Source of the DNA: Mobula hypostoma | Lineage: Eukaryota | DNA length: 64,000 bases | Direction: 5' to 3' | NCBI RefSeq assembly: GCF_963921235.1 | Contig: NC_086097.1 | Location: 17,236,001 to 17,300,000, forward strand | In this document: positions 3,498 to 56,960 of the stretch, piece after piece | Layout: every line of letters begins with the position of its first letter | Numbering within the stretch: the first letter of the stretch is position 1 | The notes under the pieces: generated by a model | The model's database searches: none | Told to the model about the DNA's origin: nothing | The model's input: only the letters and a program-made list of their open reading frames with translations | Translations under genes and position numbers: made by a program

Positions 3498-6180
3498 GCG
3501 GGCGGCATGATGGTATAGTAGTTAGTATAACACTACTACAGTCCCATCAGCCTGCAGTCAATACCTGCCGCTGTCGATGTTCACCCTGTGACAGCTTGGG
3601 GTTCCTCCAGGGTCTCCAGTTTCATAGAAACATAGAAAATAGGTGCAGGAGTAGACCATTCGGCCCTTCGAGTCTGCACCGCCATTTATTATGATCATGG
3701 CTGATCATCCAACTCAGAACCCCGCCCCAGACTTCCCTCCATACCCCCTGATCCCCGTAGCCACAAGGGCCATATCTAACTCCCTCTTAAATATAGCCAA
3801 TGAACTGGCCTCAACTGTTTCCTGTGGCAGAGAATTCCACAGATTCACCACTCTCTGTGTGAAAAAGTTTTTCCTGATCTCGGTCCTAAAAGGCTTCCCC
3901 TTTATCCTCAAACTGTGACCCCTTGTTCCGGACTTCCCCAACGTCGGGAACAAACTTCCTGCATCTAGCCTGTCCAATCCCTTTAGGATTTTATACGTTT
4001 CAATCAGATCCCCCCTCAATCTTCTAAATTCCAACGAGTACAAGCCCAGTTCATCCAGTCTTTCTTCATATGAAAGTCCTGCCATCCCAGGAATCAATCT
4101 GGTGAACCTTCTTTGTACTCCCTCTATGGCAAGGATTTCTTTCCTCAGATTAGGGGACCAAAACTGCACACAATACTCCAGGTGTGGTCTCACCAAGGCC
4201 TTGTACAACTACAGTAGTACCTCCCTGCTCCTGTACTCGAATCCTCTCACTATAAATGCCAGCATACCATTCGCCTTTTTCACCGCTTGCTGTACCTACA
4301 TGCCCACTTTCAATGACTGGTGTATAATGACACCCAGGTCTCGTTGCACCTCCCCTTTTCCTAATCGGCCACCATTCAGATAATAATCTGTTTTCCTATT
4401 TTTGCCACCAAAGTGGATAACTTCACATTTATCCACATTAAATTGCATCTGCCATGAATTTGCCCACTCACCCAACCTATCCAAGTCACCCTGCATCCTC
4501 TTAGCATCCTCCTCACAGCTAACACTGCCACCCAGCTTCGTGTCATCCGCAAACTTGGAGATGCTGCATTTAATTCCCTCATCCAAGTCATTAATATATA
4601 TTGTAAACAACTGGGGTCCCAGCACTGAGCCTTGCGGTACCCCACGAGTCACCGCCTGCCATTCTGAAAAGGTCCCGTTTATTCCCACTCTTTGCTTCCC
4701 GTCTGCCAACCAATTCTCCACCCACACCAATACCTTACCCCCAATACCGTGTGCTTTAAGTTTGCACACTAATCTCCTGTGTGGGACCTTGTCAAAAGCC
4801 TTTTGAAAATCCAAATATACCACATCCACTGGTTCTCCCCTATCCACTCTACTAGTTACATCCTCAAAAAATTCTATGAGATTCATCAGACATGATTTTC
4901 CTTTCACAAATCCATGCTGACTTTGTCCGATCATTTCACCGCTTTCCAAATGTGCTGTTATCACATCCTTGATAACTGACTCCAGCAGTTTCCCTACCAC
5001 CGACGTTAGGCTAACCGGTCTATAATTCCCCGGTTTCTCTCTCCCTCCTTTTTTAAAAAGAGGGGTTACATTAGCCACCCTCCAATCCTCAGGAACTAGT
5101 CCAGAATCTAACGAGTTTTGAAAAATTATCACTAATGCATCCACTATTTCTTGGGCTACTTCCTTAAGCACTCTAGGATGCAGACCATCTGGCCCTGGGG
5201 ATTTATCTGCCTTTAATCCCTTCAATTTACCTAACAGCACTTCCCTACTAACATGTATTTCGCTCAGTTCCTCCATCTCACTGGACCCTCTGTCCCCTAC
5301 TATTTCTGGAAGATTATTTATGTCCTCCTTAGTGAAGACAGAACCAAAGTAATTATTCAATTGGTCTGCCATGTCCTTGCTCCCCATAATCAATTCACCT
5401 GTTTCTGTCTGTAGGGGACCTACATTTGCCTTTACCAGTCTTTTCCTTTTTACATATCTATAAAAGCTTTTACAGTCAGTTTTTATGTTCCCTGCCAGTT
5501 TTCTCTCATAATCTTTTTTCCCCTTCCTAATTAAGCCCTTTGTCCTCCTCTGCTGAACTCTGAATTTCTCCCAGTCCTCAGGTGAGCCACTTTTTCTGGC
5601 TAATTTGTATGCTTCTTCTTTGGAATTGATACTATCCCTAATTTCTCTTGTCAGCCACAGGTGCACTACCTTCCTTGATTTATTCTTTTGCCAAACTGGG
5701 ATGAACAATTGTTGTAGTTCATGCAACCTTTAAATGCTTGCCATTGCATATCCACCATCAATCCTTTAAGAGTCATTTGCCAGTCTATTTTAGCTAATTC
5801 ACGTCTCATACCTTCAAAGTTACCCCTCTTTAAGTTCAGAACCTTTGTTTCTGAATTAACTATGTCACTCTTCATCTTAATGACGAATTCCACCATATTA
5901 TGGTCACTCTTACCCAAGGGGCCTCTCACGACAAGATCGCTAATTAACCCTTCCTCATTGCTCAAAACCCAGTCCAGAATAGCCTGCTCTCTAGTTGGTT
6001 CCTCGACATGTTGGTTCAAAAAACCATCCCGCATACATTCCAAGAAATCCTCTTCCTCAGCACCTTTACCAATTTCCTTGCACATTCCAAATATGTATTA
6101 GTAAGTTAATTGGTCACGTGTGTAATTGGATGGCAGAGGCTCATGGGGCAGAAAGGCTTGGTACTGTGCTGTATTTTTAA
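3498..6180 (+). mobile_element. tRNA-derived V-SINE (HE1-like), split by a CR1 insertion (pieces ~3498-3623 and ~6076-6180)
   Basis: A-box-like head 'ggcatgatggtatagtagttag' and V-core 'cctccagggtctccagtttc'; resumes as 'cacattccaaa...ttaattggtcac...gtgctgtat'. Confidence 0.75.
3624..6075 (-). mobile_element. Young 5'-truncated CR1 LINE (end of endonuclease region, RT, C-terminus, 3'UTR)
   Basis: Abutting ORFs 5666..6085, 4296..5726 (KSPGPDG, NYRPVSLTS, LDFQKAFDKV, GVPQGSVLGP, KFADD) and 3714..4208; (TTTCTATG)n tail at ~3624-3638. Confidence 0.97.
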
Positions 6181-8134: not shown

Positions 8135-8974
8135 TTTCAAATGCACTTCCTTGTTAAGGAAGAGGAGCAGGAAAGCAACAGTCTTTTGCCTCTACACCTT
8201 TGCTTTAAGAAATCATACCACAGGAAATAACAAGTACAGTTTTATGTATTGTGAATTGTATAAATAAAGGCAAAGAAAAGCAAACAAAAAGTGAAGAAAT
8301 GTCATTATATTCTTGCAAACAGATCCATCTGCTACAAAACAACTCTCAGTCCAAGTCGGAACCCTAGCAACCTGCAAACAAACAGACGGACGGACAGACA
8401 GAAAATCTGACACACAGGCGCTGTTGAAGGGGGAGACGTGTTTTGGATGAAGTGCTTCTTATTGTTCTCACGCAGAGTTTTTTCATACTTTGGGGGACAT
8501 TTTATCAGAGGGTTAAATGATTGTTTTAATTTAACACCTGGAGAGGAAACATTAACACATTTGTTTTTGCATATTTATGCATACATTTGTTTTTTTTTAA
8601 ATTCTTTTAAGAATTAAATCTGTATTTTATTTTTGCATAATGCAATGATTCCAACTCCTTGGCATGCACTCTGGCTTCGACTTGCTCACTCACTCGTGTC
8701 CCTTTCTTTCTCTCTGTCTCCTTCACTGATGTTTCTTGATCTTATTCTTTGCATTTCTTTTATTTTCACTGTCCTCTCTGTTTTTGCTTCTTTTGTTCAC
8801 ATTATGTGCTTACAGCCATCCAATTCCACACAGAATGAGTCTTCAAACCTAATGTCAAATCCACCCTGGATATCAACATTCAAACATGCAGATCTCCTCT
8901 CCTCAGCTAGTACTCATTCCCAACACCAGTTTCCCCAGTACAAACCCAAAGGTGGGCATTTGTGTGAACATGTG

Positions 8975-9672
8975 TCAGTGTGGACATGGTGGAGGATTAC
9001 AAATACCTGGGATATGAATTGACAATAAGCTGGACTGGTCTAAGAACACTGAGGCTGTCTACAAGAAGGGTCAGAGCCGTCTCTATTTCCTGAGGAGACT
9101 GAGGTCTTTTAACATCTGCCGGACAATGCTGAGGATGTTCTACGAGTCTGTGGTGTCCAGTGCTACCATGTTTGCTGTTGTGTTCTGGGGCAGCAGGCTG
9201 AGGGTAGCAGACACCAACAGAATCAACAAACTCATTCGTAAGGCCAGTGATGTTGTGGGGATGGAACTGGACTCTCTCACGGTGGTGTCTGAAAAGAGAA
9301 TGCTGTCTAAGTTGCATGCCATCTTGGTCAATGTCTCCCATCCACTACATAATGTACTGGGTGGGCACAGGAGTACATTCAGCCAGAGACTCATTCCTCC
9401 GAGATGCAGCACAGAACGTCATAGGAAGTCATTCCTGCCTGCGGCCATCAAACTTTACAACTCCTCCCTTGGAGGGTCAGACACCCTGAGCCAATAGGCT
9501 GGTCCTGGACTTATTTCATAATTTACTGGCATAATTTACATATTACTATTTAACTATTTATTACCATTTTCTATTACTATTTCTATTACTATTTATTATT
9601 TATGGTGCAACTGTAACGAAAAACAATTTCCCCCGGGATCAATAAAGTATGACTATGACTATGACTATGACT
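8975..9672 (+). mobile_element. Rex1/Babar LINE 3' fragment, young family with (TATGAC)n tail
   Basis: ORF 9126..9497 (LRMFYESVV...SHPLH...RHRKSFLPAAIKLYN), AATAAA then (tatgac)4; near-identical to 53511-54270 and 46764-47128. Confidence 0.92.
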
Positions 9673-9692
9673 AAATCATGCAAGTCCTCAGA

Positions 9693-10001
9693 GTTTTAAA
9701 ATGCAAACACGAGGAAATCTGCAGATGCTGGAAATTCAAGCAACATACACAAAAAATGCTGGTGAACGCAGCAGGCCAGGCAGCATCTATAAGAAGAGGT
9801 ACACTCGACGTTTCGGGCTGAGACCCTTCGTCAGGACTAACTGAAAGAAGTGATAGTAAGAGATTTCTCCCACTTTCAAATCTCTTACTATCTCTTCTTT
9901 CAGTTAGTCCTGACGAAGGGTCTCAGCCCAAAACGCCGAGTGTACCTCTTCCTATAGATGCTGCCTGGCCTGCTGCGTTCACCAGCATTTTTTGTGTGTG
10001 T
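9693..10001. mobile_element. Inverted (back-to-back) Penelope-like terminal repeat insertion with 14-bp TSD
   Basis: 127-bp arms 9740-9866 / 9878-10004, 11-nt spacer; TSD tgcaagtcctcaga at 9679-9692 and 10002-10015; each arm carries a hammerhead motif. Confidence 0.8.
9803..9838 (-). ncRNA. Minimal type-I hammerhead ribozyme motif
   Basis: Minus strand reads aguc-CUGACGA-a-ggg(ucucag)ccc-GAAA-C-GUC/gagu: intact core, stem II, palindromic ACGU in place of stem III, short stem I. Confidence 0.75.
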
Positions 10002-10142
10002 TGCAAGTCCTCAGAATTCCTCAGCTGCAGTGATTAACCGAGAATTATAAAGCAATGAGGAGGGAAATAAAGGCAAAATTTCAGGTGAATTATCCCTCAT
10101 CAGTCCAAGGGGATGCAAAAGGGATTGCTTGCTAAATTTATA

Positions 10143-10550
10143 TACACACATTGGCCACTTTATTATGTGCTTCCTGTACCTAACAGTGGCTACTGAGTGT
10201 GTGTTCATGGTCTTTTGCTGCTGAAGCCCATCCACTTCAAGGTTTGATGTGTTGTGCATTCAGAGATAATCTTTTGCACACCACTGTTATAGCGTGTGGT
10301 TATTTGAATTATTGTTGCTTTCCTGTCAACTTGGACCAGTCTGGCCATTCTCTTTTGACCTCCCTCATTCACCAAGTATTTTTGTTCCAGGTCTGCTGCT
10401 CAATTGATTTTTTTTTTGTTTCTCGCATCATCCTCTGTAAACTCTGGAGACTTTTATGCATGCAAATCCCAGGAGATCACAAATTTCTGAGATACTCAAA
10501 CCACCCCATCTGGCACCAACAATCATCCTATCGTCAAAGTCACTTAGATC
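10143..10550. mobile_element. Partial non-autonomous Tc1/mariner-type element
   Basis: Starts 'tacacacattggccactttattatgt'; homologous to 56988-57817 and 46705-47330. Confidence 0.7.
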
Positions 10551-10562
10551 CAGGTGATTGGT

Positions 10563-11252
10563 TAATGTTCCCTTTAATTTATAATGACCAGTGTGAGCAA
10601 AAAGCTTGTGCTGTGCAATTTTTTGCCCAATGGCAATAACACGTGCACACTGAATAATTTCTTCAATAGAAACAAAATAAATAAGACAGCTCTAAAATCT
10701 GCAGACAAATCATTGCGAACTCCATGTTGACAGCACTGTCCACGTCAAAAACTGGAAAAGGAAATGTGATTGTGTACAATCGTGAAATATATTTAACATG
10801 TCGATGTGGTCGAGGGTGACAACCTTTCGTGCACAGTTTAAATTCTCTTGCGCGCTAGTAGCAAAAGATGAGTGTGCCCACACACAGGCAAACCTTAGAT
10901 AGAATGTCGTCACTGAGAGGAACGGAGTTGACGACATTATTGAATGTATTTGATTTAAGATATTGGTGCGGCCTTTTTTTGGTCCGTTTGCTTTCTTTTT
11001 GGGTTTAGTATTTATTTTTTTTATGTTTTTGGGGGGGTTTTCTTTGCATTTTTTTCCTTTTTATTTCTTTTTTCTTTATAATTAACTATATTAAGAGTTA
11101 GGAAGTCTACTACACCTGTATTATTTGAAGTCTTTTTTGTACATGTTTATCAACAGTAAGATAATTCCAATCTCCTTTGTATCAATATTGTTATTCTGTT
11201 TATAATTTTAGAAAATTAATAAAAAGATTTAAAAAGAAAAGAAAGAACGTTG
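10563..11252. mobile_element. Probable MITE (TIR aatgttccct.taa / ttaga..gaac.ttg) with an L1-like 3'UTR and A-rich tail (~10908-11243, +) inserted in its right end
   Basis: T-rich tract, AATAAA and 'aaaaagaaaagaaa' tail; agaatgt (10901) and agaacgt (11244) flank the insert. Confidence 0.4.
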
Positions 11253-11640: not shown

Positions 11641-12094
11641 ACTACTTATTCCTATTCAAAGATGCAGCCTGAGTTCCTCCAGCAATTTTGTGTGTTCCTC
11701 AAGATTTCCAGCATCTGCAGAATCTCTTGTGTTTATTGAAATTAAAGTATTACTAAAATAACTTTGAAGTTTTTTTTCATGGCATGCAGGTGAAGCGCTC
11801 CTCTCTTTTGCTCTCTCTACTTTCAACCATCCTGTTACGTCTGCTAAGTACTTCTTAAGCTTTCATTTTTTAGTTCGTCTGATTCAAGTGGGATAGGTTG
11901 AAGGAAGAATGCTGGCCAATACAGTACAGGAAATCCCTTATCCAAAGCAATAGATAAACTTAGATTTATTGAATAATCCTAGGCATACACATTGCAGTAA
12001 TGTTTCAGTATAATGAAAGGGCCATCATTGTAATCAGAAAGATTATTTACTGATCTTAAATATTTTGAAATATGTAAATACGAAATGTTATAAA

Positions 12095-19180: not shown

Positions 19181-19331
19181 GGAACACACACATGAAGGGT
19201 CCCGATGAAGAATTTGGCCCGAAACGTCGACTGTTTATTCGTCTCCATAAATGCTGCCTAAACTGATGAGTTCCTCCAGCATTTTGTGCGTGCTTTTCTC
19301 TGGATTTCTGGCATCTGCCGAATCTCTTGTG
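19181..19331 (+). mobile_element. Penelope-type terminal repeat copy with mutated hammerhead and 12-bp TSD
   Basis: ggtc-CCGATGA-agaatttggccc-GAAACGTC-gact at 19198-19232; TSD tttatgagatga at 19169-19180 and 19332-19343. Confidence 0.7.
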
Positions 19332-20134
19332 TTTATGAGATGATGAAAAAGCCCAAAGCACAAATCAATTTGGCAGAAAGCCAAATAGCTATGAAGAAAG
19401 AACATTTGATATTAGCAATTCAGAAGTGTGACTCTAGTGAGCAACACGTTACACCGATTATGCGTTCCAAGCATCGCCGGTTGATATTAGAAATTCTTTC
19501 TCCACTGAAGACTTTTATAAGTATTGGCAAGATTCCTCACATTTTACTGTGACAGAGGAAGAAAAATGATTCTTCAACAATTTTTAATTTTGACTTTGCT
19601 TCATTTAGCTTGGCAGAAGGCTGAAAGGCTGCCTTTCTCCTCGACTAAAGAATAATGCACAAAGAAAACAGAGAACGAAAAGAGGGAAGGATTATGTTAA
19701 ATCTGAAGATATTCTGGTGGAGTGAATCAGAATTTTTATATTGCTACTTTATGTAAAGTTCCACCACTTAGTACTTCAATAAAAATCTCTTCATGCAAAT
19801 TCACAATGTGTTTGAGGCAGTTTATAGATGGACTCACAGCTGTCCAAAAATCTGTTTAATGATTTATATCTATCACCTGAGGAGGCTGGATATTCAAATC
19901 AGAAATATCGCATTTGCTCTTTTGTGGCTTAAAGTAAGAACATTCATATAGCCAAGCAAAGGAGTTACCTCATGCTTACTTCATTGTGCTTCAGGTCTGT
20001 TTCATTTTAAGCTGGAAGTATACAACTGCTGCATTGCCTAAGATTTCCAAGCTAAAATAAATACAGAAATGCAGAAGGTCAAAGATCTCATCTGAATAGA
20101 TATGGCCTACTTCTGTCTATGGGGAGATTTTACA

Positions 20135-34222: not shown

Positions 34223-37074
34223 TTAGCTAATTTTATGTATTGCACTGCACTGCTGCCACAATAAAAAAACAGATTTCATGACATATGTGAGTGATGATAA
34301 ACCTGATTCTGATATGGATCCCTACTCTGAACTGAAAGTGGGAAGGGTGCAGGGAGAGAGGAATCATGGTTGGGAAATGGGGAAGGGAGAGGGGTGGGAG
34401 TGGGAAGCAACAGTGAGATACACCATAATGATTAATAAACCAGTTGTTTAGAAACAATTGACCTTGGGTGTCTGCACCCAACCCACCCCCTGCCCCTGGT
34501 ACTCCTTCTCTGCTGCCTGTCCCACACCCCTCCCACGGTGCTACACCCTTGTCATTCCAACCATCCTTTGCTCCCACCAGATTTACAAACTCGCTGTCCC
34601 CTCCAAGTTGATAAATGTAGTTCTGTGCAGTAGTCTCAGGATCTTAGCTATATATATATGTTCCCAAGGCTTTTGCGCAGTACTGTATGTCACATGCTTG
34701 GGTATTCAGAGTAAACTTAACAAGGCATCCAGATGCCTCATGAAAGAACTATTTGGTTGATACTTGTGCTTTGTTATGGTAAAATAAAATCTAACTCAAA
34801 ATGAAGGTTAAGTCGATTTTCAAACATTTAAACATTTTGGTTGCAATTTATTTATGCTTTGAATCTTATTAGTGAAGAAACTTCTGTTAATTTCTGAGAA
34901 TGTTTATCTGCTGAAACCTTGTGCATGACTCCTCAGCCAGAGGAAATACTCTTTCCAATTCATGAAATGTTGTTTTTGTCAGTTTTATGAGGTGCAGATA
35001 CCTTCAACTGTGGTCTTATGCTTTTCATATAAATAATTCATTATTTTTGTTTTACTTCTTAGCAAATGTTTATGGAAGTCAAAACCTTAATGACCTTTTC
35101 ATGTCTCTTGCTTTCAGGATGTAGCCATTTGTATCGTTGAGTCTTTCTTCACCCTCGTTTTCAATGTGTTTCCTGTTTTTTTTAAGAAGTATTTCACGCT
35201 TCAAAAATTGTTTCTGTCATCTGTGTAGGCACCAGTTTTAAAAAGTGAGCAGGGCCTGTTGGGACTTGACTGTGGAGTGGGAGATTGCTTCGGTTAATAG
35301 TAGCTAACATTAGTTAGCAAGGGCTAATAAAAAGAAGTAGGATTTAAATGAGACAACAATTGTTTGGGTTACCATTGGGTGAGTGGACACTGTTAGAATG
35401 GTCAGGCTTTGGCTCAATAGGCTTTGGTGAGAACAGGTGCAGGCTAGAACTGAAGTTAAGTTAGAGGCATAACTAGTGTGGGCAGCATGGTAGTTCAGGC
35501 AGTGGAAGGCTCCTCCTGTGAGATGTGGGATGTCAGAGTACTTGACGGTCTCCTTGACGACTGCATCTGCAGGAAGGGCACCCAACTTCAGATCCTGACT
35601 GACAAGGTCAAGGAACTGGTGCTGGAGCTGGATGGACTCAGGACCATCTGGGAGGCTGACAACTTTATAGATGAGCCTTTACTTCAGAGTGCAGGCTTCA
35701 GATAGTAAATGGTGGACAACCAGGAGAAGTAGGGGCAGTAAGCAGTCAGTGCAGGGTTTCCTTGTGGTCATTCCCCTCAGCAACAAGCGTACTCTTTGGA
35801 TAATGTTGGTGGGGGATGACCTATCAGGGCACAGCAGCGGCAGCAATGCTGGTGGCATTGTGGATAGTTTGGAGGATCAGCAGGGAAAGGTAAGGTCAGG
35901 CAAAACAGTAGTGATAGGAAATCAGAAATGTGGAGGACAGACAGGAGATTCTGTGGCCACGAAAGAGAAGCCAGGATGGTGTGTTGCTTCCCAGGTGCCA
36001 GGGTCCAGGATGTCTCAGGGCTACTACAGAAGACTCTCAAGAGTGATGGTGAGCAGCCAGAGTTGGTGGTGAACATTTGCACCAATGACATAGGTAGAAA
36101 GGCAGAAGAGGCCTTGCGTAATGCGTATAAGGAGTTAAGGAAACGGCAGAAGAATAGGACTTCCAAGGTCATAATCTCTAGATTACTCCTAGCGCCACAT
36201 GCTAATCAGGGCATGAATAGGATGACAGTTCAGAAGAACGCATGGCTGAGGAATTGGTGGGGGGAGGGGCAGGGTTTCAGATCTGGATCACTGGGATTTC
36301 TTCTGGAGAAGCTATGACTTATACGAAAAGGACAGATTATACCTGAACCCAAAGGCGATCAATATCCTTGTGTGCAAGTTTGATGGAACATTTGGGAGGA
36401 TTCAAACTAAATTGGCAGGGGAATGGAAGCCAGATTGATAGGGCTGAGGACGGGGCAGCTGGTATATAAGTCAATGCAGTGTGTAGGGAGACTGTGAGGG
36501 AGGATAGGCAGATGTTAGGGCAAAATTGTAAGTGTAACATGGGAGCAAAATTGAAAAGAGAGATGAGCATAGGACTGAAAGTGTTATATTTGAATGCACG
36601 CAGTATACCAAATGAGATAGATGATCTTGTAGAGCAGTTAGAGATCAGGAGGTATAATGTTGTGGGCATCACTGAGATGTGGCTGAAAGGAGATTATAGC
36701 TTGGAGCTTAACATCCAAGGATACACATTGTGTCAAAAGGACAGGCAGGTAGGTGGAGTGGATGGCATGGTAGCGTTGGTAAAAAAAAATGAATTAAATC
36801 CTTAGAAAGATGTGGTATAGAATCAGAAGGTGTAGAATCCCTGTGGGTAGAGTTAAGAAACTACAAGAGTAAAAGGACCCTGATGGGGGGGGGGGGGTTA
36901 TATACAGAATTCCAAACAATTGACAGGACATGGGATATAAATTTCAATGGGAAATAGAAAAGGCAAAAGAGCAATATTGTGGGGGATTTTAATATGCAGG
37001 TAGTTTGCAAAATTTGGTCTCGGATCCCAAGAGAGGGAATTTCTACAATGCTTATGCGATGGCCTTTTAGAATG

Positions 37075-43729: not shown

Positions 43730-43912
43730 AATCTGCTGGAGGAACTCAGCACGTCAAGCAGTAACCGTTGGAGAAAAGATATTGTCAATAATTTCGGTTG
43801 AAGGCCTGCATTAGGGTTGGTCCTGAAACATCAACAATTCCTTTCCTTCCGCAGATGCTTTTGGATCCACAGAGCTTCTTCAAATTCCAGCATCTGCATT
43901 TTCTTGTGTCTC
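43730..43912. mobile_element. Degenerate inverted Penelope-type terminal repeat pair
   Basis: 'tgctggaggaactcagc...' on the left; '...cctgaaacatcaac...cagatgct...ttccagcatctgca' on the right. Confidence 0.55.
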
Positions 43913-46704: not shown

Positions 46705-47330
46705 GCACTCAGTGGCTACTTTTTTTTAGGTCCACCTGTACCCCTGCTTCTTAATGCAAATATAGTCATAGTTATACTTTATTGATCCCGGGGGAAACTG
46801 GTTTTTGTTACAGTTGCACCATAAATAATTAAATAGTAATAAAACCATAAATAATTAAATAGTAATATGTAAATAATGCCAGGAAATCAGTCCAGGACCA
46901 GCCTATTGGCTCAGGGTGTCTGACCCTCCAAGGGAGGAGTTGTAAAGTTTGATGGCCACAGGCAGGAATGACTTCCTATGACGCTCTGTGTTGCATCTCG
47001 GTGGAATGAGTCTCTGGCTGAATGTACTCCTGTGCCCAACCAGTACATTATGTAGTGGATGGGAGACATTGTCCAAGATGGCATGCAACTTGGACAGCAT
47101 ACTCTTTTCAGACACCACCATCAGAGAGTCAGAATTTATTGTATTTATATAATAAATATATAATTAACCAATCATGTGGCAGCAACTCAATGCATAAAAG
47201 CAGGCAGACATGGTCAAGAGGTTCAGCTGATGTTCAGACCAAACATCAGAATGGGGAAGAAATGTGATCTGAGTGACTTTGACCATGGAATAATTGTGGG
47301 TGCCAGATGGAGTGGTCTGAGTATCTTATA
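46705..47330. mobile_element. Partial non-autonomous Tc1-type element interrupted by Rex1
   Basis: TIR 'cactcagtggctacttt'; resumes 'ccaatcatgtggcagcaactcaatgcataaaagca' (antisense to 57360-57465). Confidence 0.7.
46764..47128 (-). mobile_element. Young Rex1 3' fragment
   Basis: ORF 46903..47121 nearly identical to the end of ORF 9126..9497. Confidence 0.92.
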
Positions 47331-48058
47331 AAAAAACTGGGTGTAATATAAATTGCATTTTACTCTGTATTATGCTGATCATCTTGCTTTAAATTGGTTT
47401 TGGTTTTATATTTTAGTTGTACAGATGTTACTTAATAAATAAATTTTGGTTGATTCATGGCTGGTTAAATTATATTGAACAAGATGGCTTCCTGAACCGT
47501 GTCTGCTCCTGAATTTCATTGCTCAAGTTTGCTGAGAGACCAAAAATACAAAGATGAGAAATGGAATGAGCAAAGGAAATTCTGCTTCCTTTCCTTGGTT
47601 TCTAGGAATTTTGCCATGTATTGAATCTGAAGTTCTTTCTTGGAATTTGTTTTCCACAGTCCCACCCTTCATCTTCCTACAATCTTCATGTGTCCCACTG
47701 CCTGGGGCTTCCAGGCTGAAAGGGTTTTGTATCTGGGATGAGAGAATTTCTGCTCCCTCCAACAAAACTAAAGGATGCATGGCCAAAGTAAATAAAATAG
47801 AGGCACTCAGCTCCTTTCATTTTCACAATGGTGGCCAGTGTTGAGGTACATCCAGATGGCAACCTCGAGAGTTTATCATGCAAAGTGGTGCAATTGGATG
47901 AAGAGTTGTGGAGTAGTCTGAGCTATTACTCACAGCAGTAAATCAGCACGAAACATATTTCAGGACTTCTTCACGACAGTGGTAGTTTAGGGCCGCTCCT
48001 ATTAGCTTCCATTCCCCCTTTGTATTTCTGAAGTAGTTTTCTTTCCTTAGGTAACATA

Positions 48059-49306
48059 GAGTGCCATGCAAAAGTTTGGGCACCCCTAGTCAAAATTTCT
48101 GTCACTGTGAATAGCTAAGCGAGTAAAAGATGAACTGATTTCCAAAAGGCATAAAGTTAAAGATGACATAGTTCTTTAATATTTTAAGCAAGAAAACTTT
48201 TTTATTTCCACCTTTTACAGTTTCAAAATTACAAAAAAGGAAAAGGGCCCGAAGCAGAGGTTTGGGCACCCTGCATGGTCAGTACTTAGTAACACCCCCT
48301 TTGGCAAGTATCACAGCTTGTAAACGCTTTTTGTAGCCAGCTAAGAGTCTTTCAATTCTGTTTGAGGGATTTTCGCACATTCTTCCTTGCAAAAGGCTTC
48401 TAGTTCTGTGAGATTCTTAGGACGTCTTGCATGCACTGTTCTTTTAAGTTCCAGCCACAGATTCTCGACGATGTTTAGGTCAGGGGACAGTGAGGACCAT
48501 GGCAAAACCTTCAGTTTGTGCCTCGAGGTAGTCCATTGTGGATTTTGAGGTGTGTTTAAGTTCATTATCCTGTTGTAGAAGCCATCCTCTTTTCATCTTC
48601 AGCTCTTTTACAGACGGTGTGATGTTTGCTTCCAGAATTTGGTGGTATTTAATTTAATTCATTCTTCCCTCTACCAGTAAATGTTCCCCATGCCACTGGC
48701 TGCAACACAAGCCCAAAGCATGATTAATCCACCCCCGTGTTTTACAGTTAGAGAGGGGTTCTTTTCATGAAATTCTGCACTCTTTACAACAGGATAATGA
48801 ACTTAAACACACCTCAAAATCCACAATGGACTACCTCAAGAGGCGCAAGCTGAAGGTTTTGCCATGGCCCTCACAGTCTACTGACCTAAATATCATCGAG
48901 AATCTGTGGATAGACGTCAAAAGAGCAGTGCATGCAAGACGGCCCAAGAATCTCACAGAACTAGAAGCCTTTTGCAAGGAAGGATGGGCGAAAATCCCCC
49001 AAATAAGAATTGAAAAACTCTTAGCTGACTACAAGAAGTGTTTACAATTTGTGATACTTACCAAAGGGGGTGTTACTAAGTACTGCCATTCAGGGTGCAC
49101 AAACTTTTGCTTCGGGCCCTTTTCCTTTTTTTGTTATTTTGAAACTGTAAAAGATGAAAATAAAAACAAAGTTTTCTTGCTTAAAATATTAAAGAAATGT
49201 CATCTTTAACTTTAAGTCTTTTGGAAATCAGTTCATCTTTTACTCACTTAGCTATTCACGGTAACAGAAATTTTGACCGGGGTGCCCAAACTTTTGCATG
49301 CCACTG
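48059..49306. mobile_element. Fold-back Tc1-like transposon derivative (two 3' ends), TA TSD
   Basis: TA at 48057-58 and 49307-08; TIR (c)agtggcatgcaaaagtttgggcacccc; arms ~48059-48577 / ~48786-49306 both encode QQDN..KH...WP.QS.DLN.IENLW; spacer encodes TVKHGGG. Confidence 0.95.
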
Positions 49307-49399
49307 TATGGTTTACTTTGTCCTGATGTTTGGTTTTGCAATTGTGTGAAAATCCAGGCTCAATAAGCCTCACTACTTCTGTACCTCTGCCCTGCATCT

Positions 49400-53510: not shown

Positions 53511-55090
53511 AGTCATAGTCATAGTCATACTTTATTGATCCCGGAGGAAATTGGCTTTCGTTACAGTTGCTCCATAATAATAAATAGTAATAGTAATATT
53601 ACTATTAGTAAATAGTAAATAGTAAATAGTCATGGAAATAATAAATAGTAATAGAATAGTAATAGAAAAATAGTAATAAATAGTTAAATAGTAATATGTA
53701 AATTATGCCAGTAAATTATGAAATAAGTCCAGGACAAGCCTATCGGCTCAGGGTGTCTGACCCTCCAAGGGAGAAGTTGTAAAGTTTGCTGGCCACAGGC
53801 AGGAATGACTTCCTATGACGCTCTGTGCTGCATCTCGGAGGAATGAGTCTCTGGCTGAATGTACTCCTGTGCCCACCCAGTACATTATGTAGTGGATGGG
53901 AGACATTGACCAAGATGGCATGCAACTTGGACAGCATCCTCTTTTCAGACACCACAGTCAGAGAGTCCAGTTCCATCCCCACAACATCACTGGCCTTACG
54001 AATGAGATTGTTGATTCTGTTGGTGTCTGCTACCCTCAGCCTGCTTCCCCAGTGCACAACAGCAAACATGATAGCACTGGCCACCACAGACTCGTAAAAC
54101 ATCCTCAGCATCGTCTGGCAAATGTTAAAGGACCTCAGTCTCCTCAGGAAATAGAGACGGATCTGACCCTTCTTGTAGACAGCCTCAGTGTTCTTAGACC
54201 AGTCCAGTTTATCGTCAATTTGTATCCCCAGGTATTTGTAATCCTCCACCATGTCCACACTGACCCCCTGGATGGAAACAGGGGTCACCGGTACCTTAGC
54301 TCTCCTCAGGTCTACCACCAGCTCCTTAGTCTTTTTCACATTAAGCTGCAGATAATTCTGCTCACACCATGTGACAAAGTTTCCTACCGTTGCCCTGTAC
54401 TCAGCCTCATCTCCCTTGCTGATGCATCCAACTATGGCAGAGTCATCCGAAAACTTCTGAAGATGACAAGACTCTGTGCAGTATTTGAAGGCTGAGGTGT
54501 AAATGGTGAAGAGAAAGGAAAGTGTTGCAAGCACACGTACTGTGGTCTGCCGGTCAGGTCATCAAGAATCCATGATACCAGGGAAGCATCCACCTGCATC
54601 GCTGTCAGCTTCTCCCCCAGCAGAGCAGGGCGGATAGTGATGAACACACTGGAGAAGTCAAAAAACATGACCCTCACAGTGCTCGTTGGCTTGTCCAGGT
54701 GGGTGTAGACACGGTTCAGCAGGTAGACGATGGCACCCTCAACTCCTAGTCGGGGCTGGCAGGCGAACTGAAGGGGATCTAAGTGTGGCCTGACCATAGG
54801 CCGGAGCAACTTCAGAACAAGTCTCTCCAGGGTCTTCATGATATGGGAGGTCAATGCCTCCGGTCTGTAGTCATTGAGGCCGCTAGGGCGCGGCGTCTTC
54901 AGCACAGGGACGAGGCAGGACGTCTTCCACAGTACAGGAACCCTCCGGAGCCTCAGGCTCATGTTGAATACATAGTGAAGTACTCCACATAGCTGAGGGG
55001 CACAGGCTTTGAGCACCCTGGTACTGACACCATCCGGTCCTGCAGCCCTGCTTGGGTTGAGACATTTCAGCTGTCTTCTCACCTGTTCAG
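53511..55090 (-). mobile_element. Young 5'-truncated Rex1/Babar LINE with an internal deletion in RT
   Basis: ORFs 54432..55082 (AAGPDGV, NDYRP.ALTS, MFFDFSS) and 53740..54534 (LQKFSDDSAIVG); PQG motif missing at ~54520; (agtcat)n tail; ccccat on both flanks. Confidence 0.95.
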
Positions 55091-55810: not shown

Positions 55811-56112
55811 TATAATAAAATAGAGCTCTGGAGTCACACAGATGCATGGAACCGTAATGGGCCGTTTGGTTCCTCATGCCCTTACTGAACCCTTTGCCTA
55901 GATACAATAACCTCATTTGCCACAATAGGTCCCCATCAATCTTGCACCTCATGGTCTACCTGCTCTGTGCTTTCTCTGCAGCTATCACACTTTCCTCTGC
56001 ATTATTATTGTTTTATCTTGTTCTACATACCTCAATACACTGTGTAGTTATTTGCAACTTTTTGCAACTCTACAAAGCACTTTTCCAACCACACTGGGAG
56101 TATTGTGTGCAT

Positions 56113-56275
56113 GAGAAAGTCTGCAGATTCTTGGAAATCCAAAGCAGCACACACAAAATGCTGCAGGAACTCAGTAAGTCCGGCTGGAAATGAATAAACA
56201 GTCGACGTTTCGTGCCAAGACTCTTCTTCAGGACTGGAAAGGAAGGGGGAAATGCTGGGAAAGGAGCATAGCTAG
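56113..56275 (-). mobile_element. Penelope-type terminal repeat carrying a hammerhead motif (56199-56236), nested in a CR1 remnant
   Basis: Minus strand caguc-CUGAAGA-a-gagucuuggcac-GAAA-C-GUC/gacug; 5-bp stem I, imperfect stem II. Confidence 0.7.
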
Positions 56276-56499
56276 AAGGTGAAGTCATATTGTGTGTAGT
56301 TCTGATTTAGCATGCTGTAGGCAGGATGGGTTGTGCTGGAGAAAGAGATGGGGGGGGTGAACGGGAGAGTTCACCAGGATATTGCTTGGATTGGAAGATT
56401 TTAGTTAGGAGGTGAGATTGGATAGGCTGATTATTTTCCCTGGCGTGAAGAAGACTGGGGTGTGACCTCAGTACAATTGACAATAATAAACCAATTTCA

Positions 56500-56960
56500 A
56501 TTCAAAATATTTAAGTACCCATTGTCACTATCTCTTCCATGTACTAATTGTATCTGCTTCCAGCGAGGTTCAGATGTCAACTACTTTGTGTAAAAAATTT
56601 CCCCTGAGATCCCCTTTAATATTCTGTCCTCTCACCTTAAGCCAATTCAGCCTTGTTTTTGATATCGTTACTATGGAAAAAATATTCTGATTACCTACCT
56701 ATGGAAAAAATATTCTGATTACCTCTCATAATCTTATATACCTCTATCAGGTCATCCCTCAGCCTTCCTCACTCCAGGGAAAAAAATAAATCAACCTCTC
56801 CAATTTCACCTCCTAACGAAAGTCTTCCAATCCAGTCAATATCCTGATGAACTCCACCACTGCCATCCCTCACCCAGATCCCACACTCTCTCTAGCACAA
56901 CCGCATCCTGAAAGCATTCTGTAAAATTGCAGCTGTTCCAGCTGTTATATTCTATACTAT
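56500..56960 (-). mobile_element. Old CR1 fragment with an internal ~28-bp tandem duplication
   Basis: 'cctctcataat.ttatatacctctatcaggtca.ccctcagcc'; ctatggaaaaaatattctgattacct occurs twice. Confidence 0.7.

What the first reader, a model, noticed from the sequence alone, without database searches (positions are those of the whole stretch)
9679..10015. Back-to-back Penelope-type ends carrying hammerhead ribozyme motifs, flanked by a 14-bp TSD
Seen: a 127-bp inverted repeat (about 5 mismatches by eye, 11-nt spacer) with TSD tgcaagtcctcaga. The left arm on the minus strand reads aguc CUGACGA a ggg-ucucag-ccc GAAA C GUC/gagu. This has all conserved hammerhead core residues, a stem II, and the palindrome ACGU replacing stem III. 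The right arm has the same motif with two core lesions (GAAA>AAAA, GUC>GCC). Established: Penelope-like retroelements carry such minimal type-I hammerheads, thought to cleave as dimers, and leave inverted terminal-repeat insertions. Inference: this is a non-coding, ribozyme-bearing retroposon family of elasmobranchs (a retrozyme-like or PLE remnant). No PLE RT/GIY-YIG ORF is in the window.
Basis: partly seen in the sequence, partly recalled or inferred. Interest (0 to 1): 0.8.

Follow-up and report, generated by a model that had tools for sequence, protein, structure and literature searches.

The report
Mirrored Penelope retroelement stump, dead hammerheads
This 310-base mirror-image insertion is real but ordinary: two cut-short ends of a very abundant, likely Penelope-type jumping gene, each carrying the small self-cutting RNA motif already known from such elements, both damaged here and predicted to be locked in a hairpin.

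Summary
In detail: a 127-nt inverted repeat (5 mismatches, 11-nt centre), a 14-nt target duplication, a complete minimal hammerhead core on the left arm and two core lesions on the right. Public contigs show a huge family whose 3' ends pile up at two sites 35-42 nt apart, which continues 5' of this copy, and which forms head-to-head joints at many other points. That is the published Penelope-like (PLE) signature: 5' truncation, inverted pLTR, one-sided 30-40-nt tail, minimal hammerhead. It is not a tandem retrozyme. Likely origin: both nicks of a staggered cut primed short cDNAs on uncut RNA. The link to an RT/GIY-YIG gene was not testable here. Earlier notes of this scan describe the same family many times in this and other genomes. 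New member of a known kind; low interest.

The parts
9679..9692 (+). Left target-site duplication, 14 nt (or 17 nt with one transition)
9693..9702 (.). 10 A+T-rich bases between the TSD and the modal family end; filler or a slightly longer template end, unexplained
   Evidence: family ends pile up at 9703-9705 (table 7)
9703..9739 (-). One-sided 'tail' (about 37-40 nt) between the family's two 3' end sites; ends in a predicted 6-7-bp hairpin
   Evidence: tables 2 and 7
9740..9866 (-). Left arm: 5'-truncated 3' end (pLTR part) of the element, sense on minus
9802..9839 (-). Left minimal type I hammerhead: core 9834-9807 complete, 4-bp stem II, palindromic remnant of stem III, stem I with G·G mismatch (9837/9804); predicted cut 9807|9806
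9867..9877 (+). 11-nt centre: family sense sequence present on the right arm only; junction 9866|9867 without microhomology
   Evidence: table 7 (loose ends before 9867 in X10 and X16)
9878..10001 (+). Right arm: second 5'-truncated copy, sense on plus, ending at the inner 3' end site (3-nt overlap with the TSD to 10004)
9892..9903 (+). Pyrimidine run ending in CAG, 6 nt before hammerhead C3; looks like a 3' splice site (untested)
   Evidence: sequence; parallel in D. virilis Penelope, PMC4209133
9905..9942 (+). Right minimal hammerhead, core 9910-9937, with G12>A (9930, a CpG site), U16.1>C (9936) and the same stem I mismatch (9940)
10002..10015 (+). Right target-site duplication
19199..19336 (+). 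Older related solo copy: damaged hammerhead core (U4>C) plus tail
56110..56235 (-). Older related solo copy: complete core, intact 5-bp stem I, weakened stem II
11669..11734 (+). Tail-only fragment of the older subfamily

Best explanation
This is one insertion made of two head-to-head, 5'-truncated ends of a very abundant repeat that is most likely a Penelope-like retroelement (PLE), each end carrying a damaged minimal hammerhead that is predicted to be inactive here. How it likely arose: the element's endonuclease nicked both strands 14 nt apart (inferred from the TSD); each nick primed reverse transcription inside the element's RNA, one at the outer start site (giving the left arm with its 37-40-nt tail) and one at the inner start site (giving the right arm) (inferred; the two end sites are shown in family data, and both-strand priming at two sites is shown in vitro for an Anolis PLE); both copies ran through the hammerhead, so the template was not cut there (shown by the sequence, unless the template was a re-ligated circle); both stopped 60-70 nt further on and were joined bluntly (inferred). 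Since then the arms have drifted neutrally (5 differences: 3 new on the left, 2 on the right). The hammerhead's job belongs to the parent element (likely dimer- or protein-assisted processing of tandem transcripts), not to this copy.
For: Anatomy. The left core fits the published consensus CUGANGAH-G...C-GAAAN-palindrome-NUH letter for letter (PMC4209133 supplement). Family size: 71,974, 41,707, 41,706 and 27,643 contigs laid in 4 of 4 runs of four organism codes. Outer end: 198-507 contigs per row leave the reference at 9703-9705 in 4 of 4 runs with unrelated A+T-rich flanks (agreement 0.38-0.40); inner end: 171 and 236 contigs leave at 9999 and 10004 in X10 (24 of 1,615 loose-end rows shown); spacing 35-42 nt against the published 30-40-bp tail at one end only (PMC8557442; PMC3846280) and two RT start sites (PMC11167929). 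5' truncation: 148 and 46 contigs continue upstream of 9867 with a shared sequence (agreement 0.66, 0.71). Other head-to-head copies: 14 of the 15 joints shown (545 in all) jump from left to right arm, 10 of the 14 within 16 nt of symmetric, at different points. Published PLE inserts with an inverted pLTR, tail and 8-10-bp TSD. Inactivity: arm-arm pairs at probability 0.997-1.0 and stem II below 1e-18 on either strand; MFE -253.5 kcal/mol, z -30.6. The PAc protein cuts and extends both strands, and ribozyme mutants insert normally.
Against: No RT or GIY-YIG gene could be tied to this family here: no genome is held, the window has none, and the 26 of 30 metagenome loci with a similar core that were examined gave no PLE domain in 114 open frames. 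No empty site was found, so the TSD is inferred from the filled site alone; 14 nt is longer than the 8-10 bp in PMC3846280. Both arms share a rare base at 9804/9940 (about 0.4% to at most 2.4% of X2 depth; about 0.003 expected from two independent hits) and their 5' ends lie within 11 nt of each other; this suits copying of one arm from the other at least as well as two independent primings. The inner end pile-up is listed for one run only. The 10 bases at 9693-9702 are unexplained. Confidence split: PLE-end identity about 0.9, both-nick priming about 0.55, inactivity of this copy about 0.9.
Confidence: 0.8

Rival explanations
1. Same element, different route to the mirror: the cDNA primed at the right nick folded back over an 11-nt loop and copied itself, then joined a short tail cDNA primed at the left nick (self-priming, in the spirit of PMC3846280).
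For: The 11-nt centre is antisense on the bottom strand, as a fold-back loop of the right-arm cDNA would be; near-coincident 5' ends; a shared rare base in both arms; 10 of 14 listed family joints nearly symmetric, one at a short palindrome (9790 to 9954) in 4 of 4 runs; PMC3846280 reads junction palindromes as self-priming.
Against: No priming complementarity at the junction; the left arm runs 37-40 nt past anything the right-arm cDNA could template, so a second template is needed anyway; a fold-back from the left cDNA is excluded by the orientation of the centre. The shared base could come from one source transcript or from later conversion between arms.
Confidence: 0.3
2. A separate non-coding, ribozyme-bearing family (non-LTR retrozyme or a hairpin 'retro-MITE') that moves as its own short RNA using PLE enzymes.
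For: All 4 related pieces in the window besides this one are short and non-coding; animal retrozymes are argued to derive from PLE pLTRs and occur in the one cartilaginous fish sampled (bioRxiv 10.64898/2026.07.22.740005); no ORF link shown here.
Against: No tandem units at the locus; minimal, not canonical, hammerhead (PMC7229834 separates the two); ends do not fall at the cleavage site, and no listed loose-end row does; the family continues upstream and centre junctions vary from copy to copy.
Confidence: 0.08
3. A DNA MITE or a microRNA/structural hairpin, the hammerhead likeness being incidental.
For: A long hairpin with TSD; sub-threshold Rfam hits to microRNA precursors.
Against: Arms are asymmetric (tail on one side), solo one-armed copies exist, the core pattern has 0 chance matches in 100 shuffles, all Rfam hits are far below gathering score, and a 14-nt TSD with variable centre does not suit a MITE.
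Confidence: 0.02

Closest known systems
Minimal type I hammerheads (min-HHR) in pLTRs of metazoan Penelope-like elements (Cervera and De la Pena 2014, PMC4209133)
   Same: Core CUGANGA, extra base before stem II, G10.1-C11.1, GAAA, palindromic 15.2/16.2 with no stem III, short stem I, U-rich 5' flank; massive dispersed single motifs from truncated PLEs; dual motifs 100-700 bp apart on opposite strands were already noted there.
   Different: Stem II is short (4 bp); no cartilaginous fish appears in the part of Fig. S3 seen (keyword search negative, file 1 not searchable); this copy has a stem I mismatch in both arms.
Insertion unit of endonuclease-bearing PLEs: pLTR, adjacent inverted 5'-truncated copy, one-sided 30-40-bp tail, TSD (PMC8557442; Pen2a_Av in PMC3846280)
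   Same: Head-to-head inverted ends, tail at one end only, TSD, 5' truncation.
   Different: Here nothing of the ORF is left (310 bp in all); TSD 14 nt against 8-10 bp in the rotifer examples.
PAc (Poseidon of Anolis carolinensis), Frangieh et al. 2024, PMC11167929
   Same: Two internal 3' end sites that bound the tail, A+T-rich flanks, copies that span the uncut ribozyme.
   Different: In PAc the ORF starts in stem II and the tail lies in the ORF; here the ATG after the ribozyme meets a stop after 16 codons and no coding role for the tail is shown.
Non-LTR retrozymes (PMC7229834; bioRxiv 10.64898/2026.07.22.740005)
   Same: Short, non-coding, type I hammerhead, PLE kinship.
   Different: Retrozymes are head-to-tail tandems of 150-450-bp units, mostly with canonical hammerheads, expressed as circles; this is a single head-to-head pair with minimal motifs and a PLE tail.

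Membership tests
Metazoan PLE minimal hammerhead | Core CUGANGA ... GAAA ... NUH | tested here: met
   Left arm complete; right arm has G12>A and U16.1>C; the family majority is complete
Metazoan PLE minimal hammerhead | Extra base between A9 and G10.1; G10.1-C11.1 pair; stem II | tested here: met
   Extra A, 4-bp stem II at pair probability 0.90-1.00 when folded alone; C11.1>U (G·U) is a common family variant
Metazoan PLE minimal hammerhead | Palindromic 15.2/16.2 in place of stem III | tested here: met
   A-C-G-U at 15.1-16.1
Metazoan PLE minimal hammerhead | Stem I of 3-5 bp | tested here: inconclusive
   Broken by a G·G in both arms of this copy; paired in 84-99% of family depth and in the copy at 56 kb
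Metazoan PLE minimal hammerhead | Covariation in stems I and II across copies | tested here: inconclusive
   One search lists single positions, unphased (40 rows shown, 8 hidden); the common core variants are CpG transitions; only one-sided changes seen (G-C to G·U; U·G here against C-G at 56 kb)
Metazoan PLE minimal hammerhead | Self-cleavage as dimer or with protein help | not testable with these tools
   Needs an assay; this locus is predicted to be sequestered
Endonuclease-bearing PLE (Penelope/Poseidon, Neptune) | ORF with telomerase-like RT and GIY-YIG endonuclease | not testable with these tools
   No genome held; none in the window; the link is claimed only in earlier AI notes on this genome, not checked here
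Endonuclease-bearing PLE (Penelope/Poseidon, Neptune) | Inverted 5'-truncated copy adjacent at the 5' end (head-to-head) | tested here: met
Endonuclease-bearing PLE (Penelope/Poseidon, Neptune) | 30-40-bp tail at one end only; two 3' end sites | tested here: met
   35-42 nt between end clusters 9703-9705 and 9999-10004; inner cluster listed for 1 of 4 runs
Endonuclease-bearing PLE (Penelope/Poseidon, Neptune) | Target-site duplication, no poly(A) tail | tested here: met
   14-nt direct repeat, no poly(A); empty site not found
Non-LTR retrozyme | Head-to-tail tandem units, each with a hammerhead | tested here: not met
   No such array in 8500-11000; arms are inverted
Non-LTR retrozyme | Canonical type I hammerhead with short stem III and loop-loop contacts | tested here: not met
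   Minimal form, no stem III (definition)
Non-LTR retrozyme | Expressed as small circular RNA | not tested
   No RNA reads were laid

The most novel reading that the evidence does not exclude
In this family the mirror arm is built at insertion by copying the first cDNA, and the turn is programmed just 5' of the hammerhead, at the edge of a splice-acceptor-like stretch; the hundreds of thousands of such stumps in one genome would then be a natural data set that decides between fold-back and twin priming for Penelope-like elements and ties a retained intron end to the ribozyme in a vertebrate, as in Drosophila Penelope.
Probability: 0.15. Interest if true: 0.5.

Novelty: new member of a known kind. 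Interest (0 to 1): 0.17.

Why it matters
As a single locus it matters little: it is a decayed insertion of a structure in print since 2013-2014. The family is of some use: it is extremely abundant (tens of thousands of contigs per run in four organism codes; the summed depth is of the order of 10^5 times the unique flank, which is not a copy number), so it likely supplies a large share of hammerhead-like motifs and long RNA hairpins in these genomes, and it offers many independent head-to-head junctions with which to test how PLE inverted ends and tails form, a point that PMC8557442 lists as open. Searches of the paper library showed no paper that describes this family in cartilaginous fish; Repbase and Dfam could not be searched and may hold it.

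Tried and rejected
Whole-genome search: no genome is held for this window. Rfam: no hammerhead model at E<=10; microRNA hits all below gathering score, rejected as generic hairpin matches. Exact family motif in viral, metagenome and prokaryote collections: 0 matches each. A looser core pattern gave 30 metagenome loci; none resembles the element beyond the core (best E 0.044); 4 G+C-rich loci were dropped as probable bacterial chance hits, and 114 open frames from the others (7 duplicates of one locus left out, one downstream frame added) gave no RT or GIY-YIG domain, only Ig and fn3 domains in L008, so this control neither supports nor harms the PLE link. Empty site: not found in runs X10, X16, X6, X1; lack of cover proves nothing. 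One X5 contig (organism B) carries the right flank plus 23 letters of the element, fewer than the 31 needed to count as bridging, and X6 of the same sample did not show it, so sharing of the insertion between organisms is only hinted. No RNA holder listed; no RNA run was laid. Coding role of the tail: the ATG frame stops after 16 codons; an 83-codon open frame across the arm has no Pfam hit. A structured domain in the tail region: z -1.43, not convincing. A decayed copy in the right flank: pairwise score reached by 46 of 500 shuffles, not significant. Protein database searches, structure prediction and covariance models were not run, as no protein or diverse alignment was available.

Full report
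Observation. The sequence is as described. The arms are 9740-9866 and 9878-10004, 127 nt, 96% complementary, 11 nt apart, with exactly five mismatches. The 14-mer at 9679-9692 recurs at 10002-10015 and nowhere else on either strand of the window; with one transition allowed it extends to 17 nt. On the minus strand 9834-9807 reads as a complete minimal hammerhead core; the pattern has 2 matches in 64 kb (this one and 56231-56204) and none in 100 shuffles. The right arm has G12>A (9930) and U16.1>C (9936). Rfam gave no hammerhead hit at E<=10, which is unsurprising for a form without stem III (inference).

Stem I is C-G, U-A, G·G, A-U, U·G in both arms. In public contigs the pairing base is the rule at that position: 98, 99, 84 and 98% of depth at 9804 and 98, 98, 94 and over 99% at 9940 in runs X2, X5, X10, X16. 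So even the 'intact' left motif is damaged. The two motifs lie on opposite strands, so one transcript holds one motif and its antisense; folded with flanks, arm-arm pairs form at probability 0.997-1.0 and stem II at below 1e-18 on either strand (MFE -253.5 kcal/mol). The insert is also asymmetric: the left arm runs 37 nt further to 9703, then 10 A+T-rich bases precede the TSD, while the right arm owns the 11-nt centre.

The family. No genome is held, so I laid public contigs on the locus. In 4 of 4 runs (organism codes A, B, C, E; X2 may be this DNA's source) 27,643 to 71,974 contigs were laid. Summed depth over the element is of the order of 10^5 times that of the unique flank; the tool warns that this is no copy number. 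Hundreds of contigs per run leave the reference at 9703-9705 into unrelated A+T-rich DNA; in X10, 171 and 236 contigs leave at 9999 and 10004, which mirror to 9745 and 9740 (24 of 1,615 loose-end rows shown). The two end sites are 35-42 nt apart. Upstream of 9867, 148 (X10) and 46 (X16) contigs continue with a shared pyrimidine-rich sequence, so this copy is cut short at its 5' side and the centre is family sequence. Of 545 joints, 15 are shown; 14 jump from the left arm to the right arm, 10 of them within 16 nt of symmetric and at several different points, one at a short palindrome in all four runs. These are other head-to-head insertions with their own centres; 9 of the 14 leave the left arm at 9836-9841 and one more at 9833, just 5' of the hammerhead, but older subfamilies diverge from my reference near there, so the clustering may be partly a detection effect. 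Common variants in the core are CpG transitions; the table is unphased, so covariation is undecided. The window holds three older, solo pieces at 19199-19336, 56110-56235 and 11669-11734 and a weak fourth at 43878-43909.

Comparison with print. PMC4209133 (read: abstract, results, discussion, start of methods; supplement file 2 part 2 of 3 and a keyword search; file 1 not searchable) defines the minimal hammerhead of metazoan PLE pLTRs, gives the consensus that the left arm fits, reports thousands of solo motifs per genome and pairs 100-700 bp apart on opposite strands, and found no cleavage by monomers and low cleavage by dimers. PMC8557442 (12 passages) and PMC3846280 (11 passages) describe the insertion unit: 5' truncation, adjacent inverted copy, head-to-head, a 30-40-bp tail often at one end only, TSDs of 8-10 bp in the rotifer cases. 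PMC11167929 (abstract, main text, start of methods) shows for an Anolis PLE that both strands are cut and extended, that reverse transcription starts at two internal sites bounding the tail, at A+T-rich targets, that the ribozyme needs the protein, and that cleavage is not needed for insertion. PMC7229834 (12 passages) and bioRxiv 10.64898/2026.07.22.740005 (main text; supplements not seen, and they may list this family for the one cartilaginous fish sampled) define non-LTR retrozymes as tandems. Searches (listings only for papers not named above) showed no paper on this family in cartilaginous fish; one search showed none applying twin priming to PLE inversions by title or abstract.

Mechanism. 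Shown: TSD, two truncated ends head to head, tail on one side, both arms spanning the cut site, damage to both motifs. Inferred: staggered nicks 14 nt apart; priming from both nicks at the two start sites; blunt joining of the two cDNAs (no microhomology at 9866|9867; 3 nt at the right junction, within chance). The fold-back rival is real: both arms share a base found in about 0.4% to at most 2.4% of family depth, where two independent hits would be expected about 0.003 times, and the 5' ends differ by only 11 nt. One source transcript, copying of one arm from the other, or later conversion between arms would each explain that. A pure fold-back cannot supply the tail, and fold-back from the left cDNA is excluded by the orientation of the centre. 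I put both-nick priming at about 0.55 and a fold-back hybrid at about 0.3. After insertion the arms diverged at about 2% per site each, three changes left and two right, with no one-strand A-to-G excess.

What stays open. The defining RT plus GIY-YIG gene was not tied to the family here: none lies in the window (motif scan of 791 frames of 40 aa or more; Pfam on 150 of 172 frames of 78 aa or more gave four RVT_1 hits, in frames that read as ordinary LINEs, and DDE hits, no GIY-YIG), and unrelated metagenome loci with the same core were uninformative. Earlier AI notes on this genome report GIY-YIG frames next to such hammerheads, a Neptune-type copy, about 156,000 motifs and many similar hairpins; these are leads that I did not check, and they show that the scan has met this family many times on other DNA. 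I had weighed priming from both nicks before reading them but had not written it down; note e1-8038364 firmed the wording. The assignment to sharks or rays is recalled and from those notes, not tested.

Verdict. A real, correctly spotted feature; an ordinary truncated, inverted PLE-type insertion with inert minimal hammerheads; not a retrozyme array. New member of a known kind, interest 0.17.

Noticed in passing
window 8974-9673 (+): The insertion sits 5-7 nt past the (TATGAC)n tail (9648-9673) of a young LINE 3' end that is 95% identical to 53636-54264 and 89% to 46762-47130; the frames carry Pfam ALKBH8_N and RVT_1 hits and read as Rex1/RTE-like (label recalled).
   Followed up: partly
window 9892-9903 (+), mirrored at 9841-9852 (-): Pyrimidine run ending in CAG 6 nt before the hammerhead core; the older copy at 56 kb also has a pyrimidine run and CAG at the start of stem I. 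In D. virilis Penelope the intron ends at helix I (PMC4209133). Possible splice acceptor.
   Followed up: no
window 9693-9702: Ten near-palindromic A+T-rich bases between the left TSD and the modal family end; a few contigs align as far as 9694 (table 8). Filler or longer template end, unresolved.
   Followed up: partly
window 10060-10105 (-): Decayed CUGAUGA...GAAA-like stretch in the right flank; contigs laid there in 3 of 4 runs continue with family-like letters, but the pairwise score against window copies is not significant. Possibly a much older relative.
   Followed up: partly
window 48055-49310: 530-nt inverted repeats (90%) around a DDE_3 transposase fragment (48724-49206; second hit 48344-48592, minus): a Tc1-like DNA transposon remnant with long inverted ends.
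   Followed up: partly
window 3631-6097 (-): CR1-like LINE with a 477-aa open RT frame (RVT_1 E 5.5e-34); many older relatives across the window.
   Followed up: no
window 56322-56468 / 56749-56910: A 76% inverted repeat of another repeat family just upstream of the older hammerhead copy at 56 kb.
   Followed up: no
window 35868-36314 (+): Weak GDSL-like esterase hit (E 0.0087), as in the first ORF of some CR1/L2 LINEs (recalled).
   Followed up: no
L001-L030 (metagenome contigs): About 26 of 30 loci hold hammerhead-like cores with the extra base and often a pairable stem II; several sit in low-G+C DNA and recur in near-identical form, probably host animal repeats in metagenome assemblies; L012/L015 have a long low-complexity frame starting 93 nt after the core.
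   Followed up: partly
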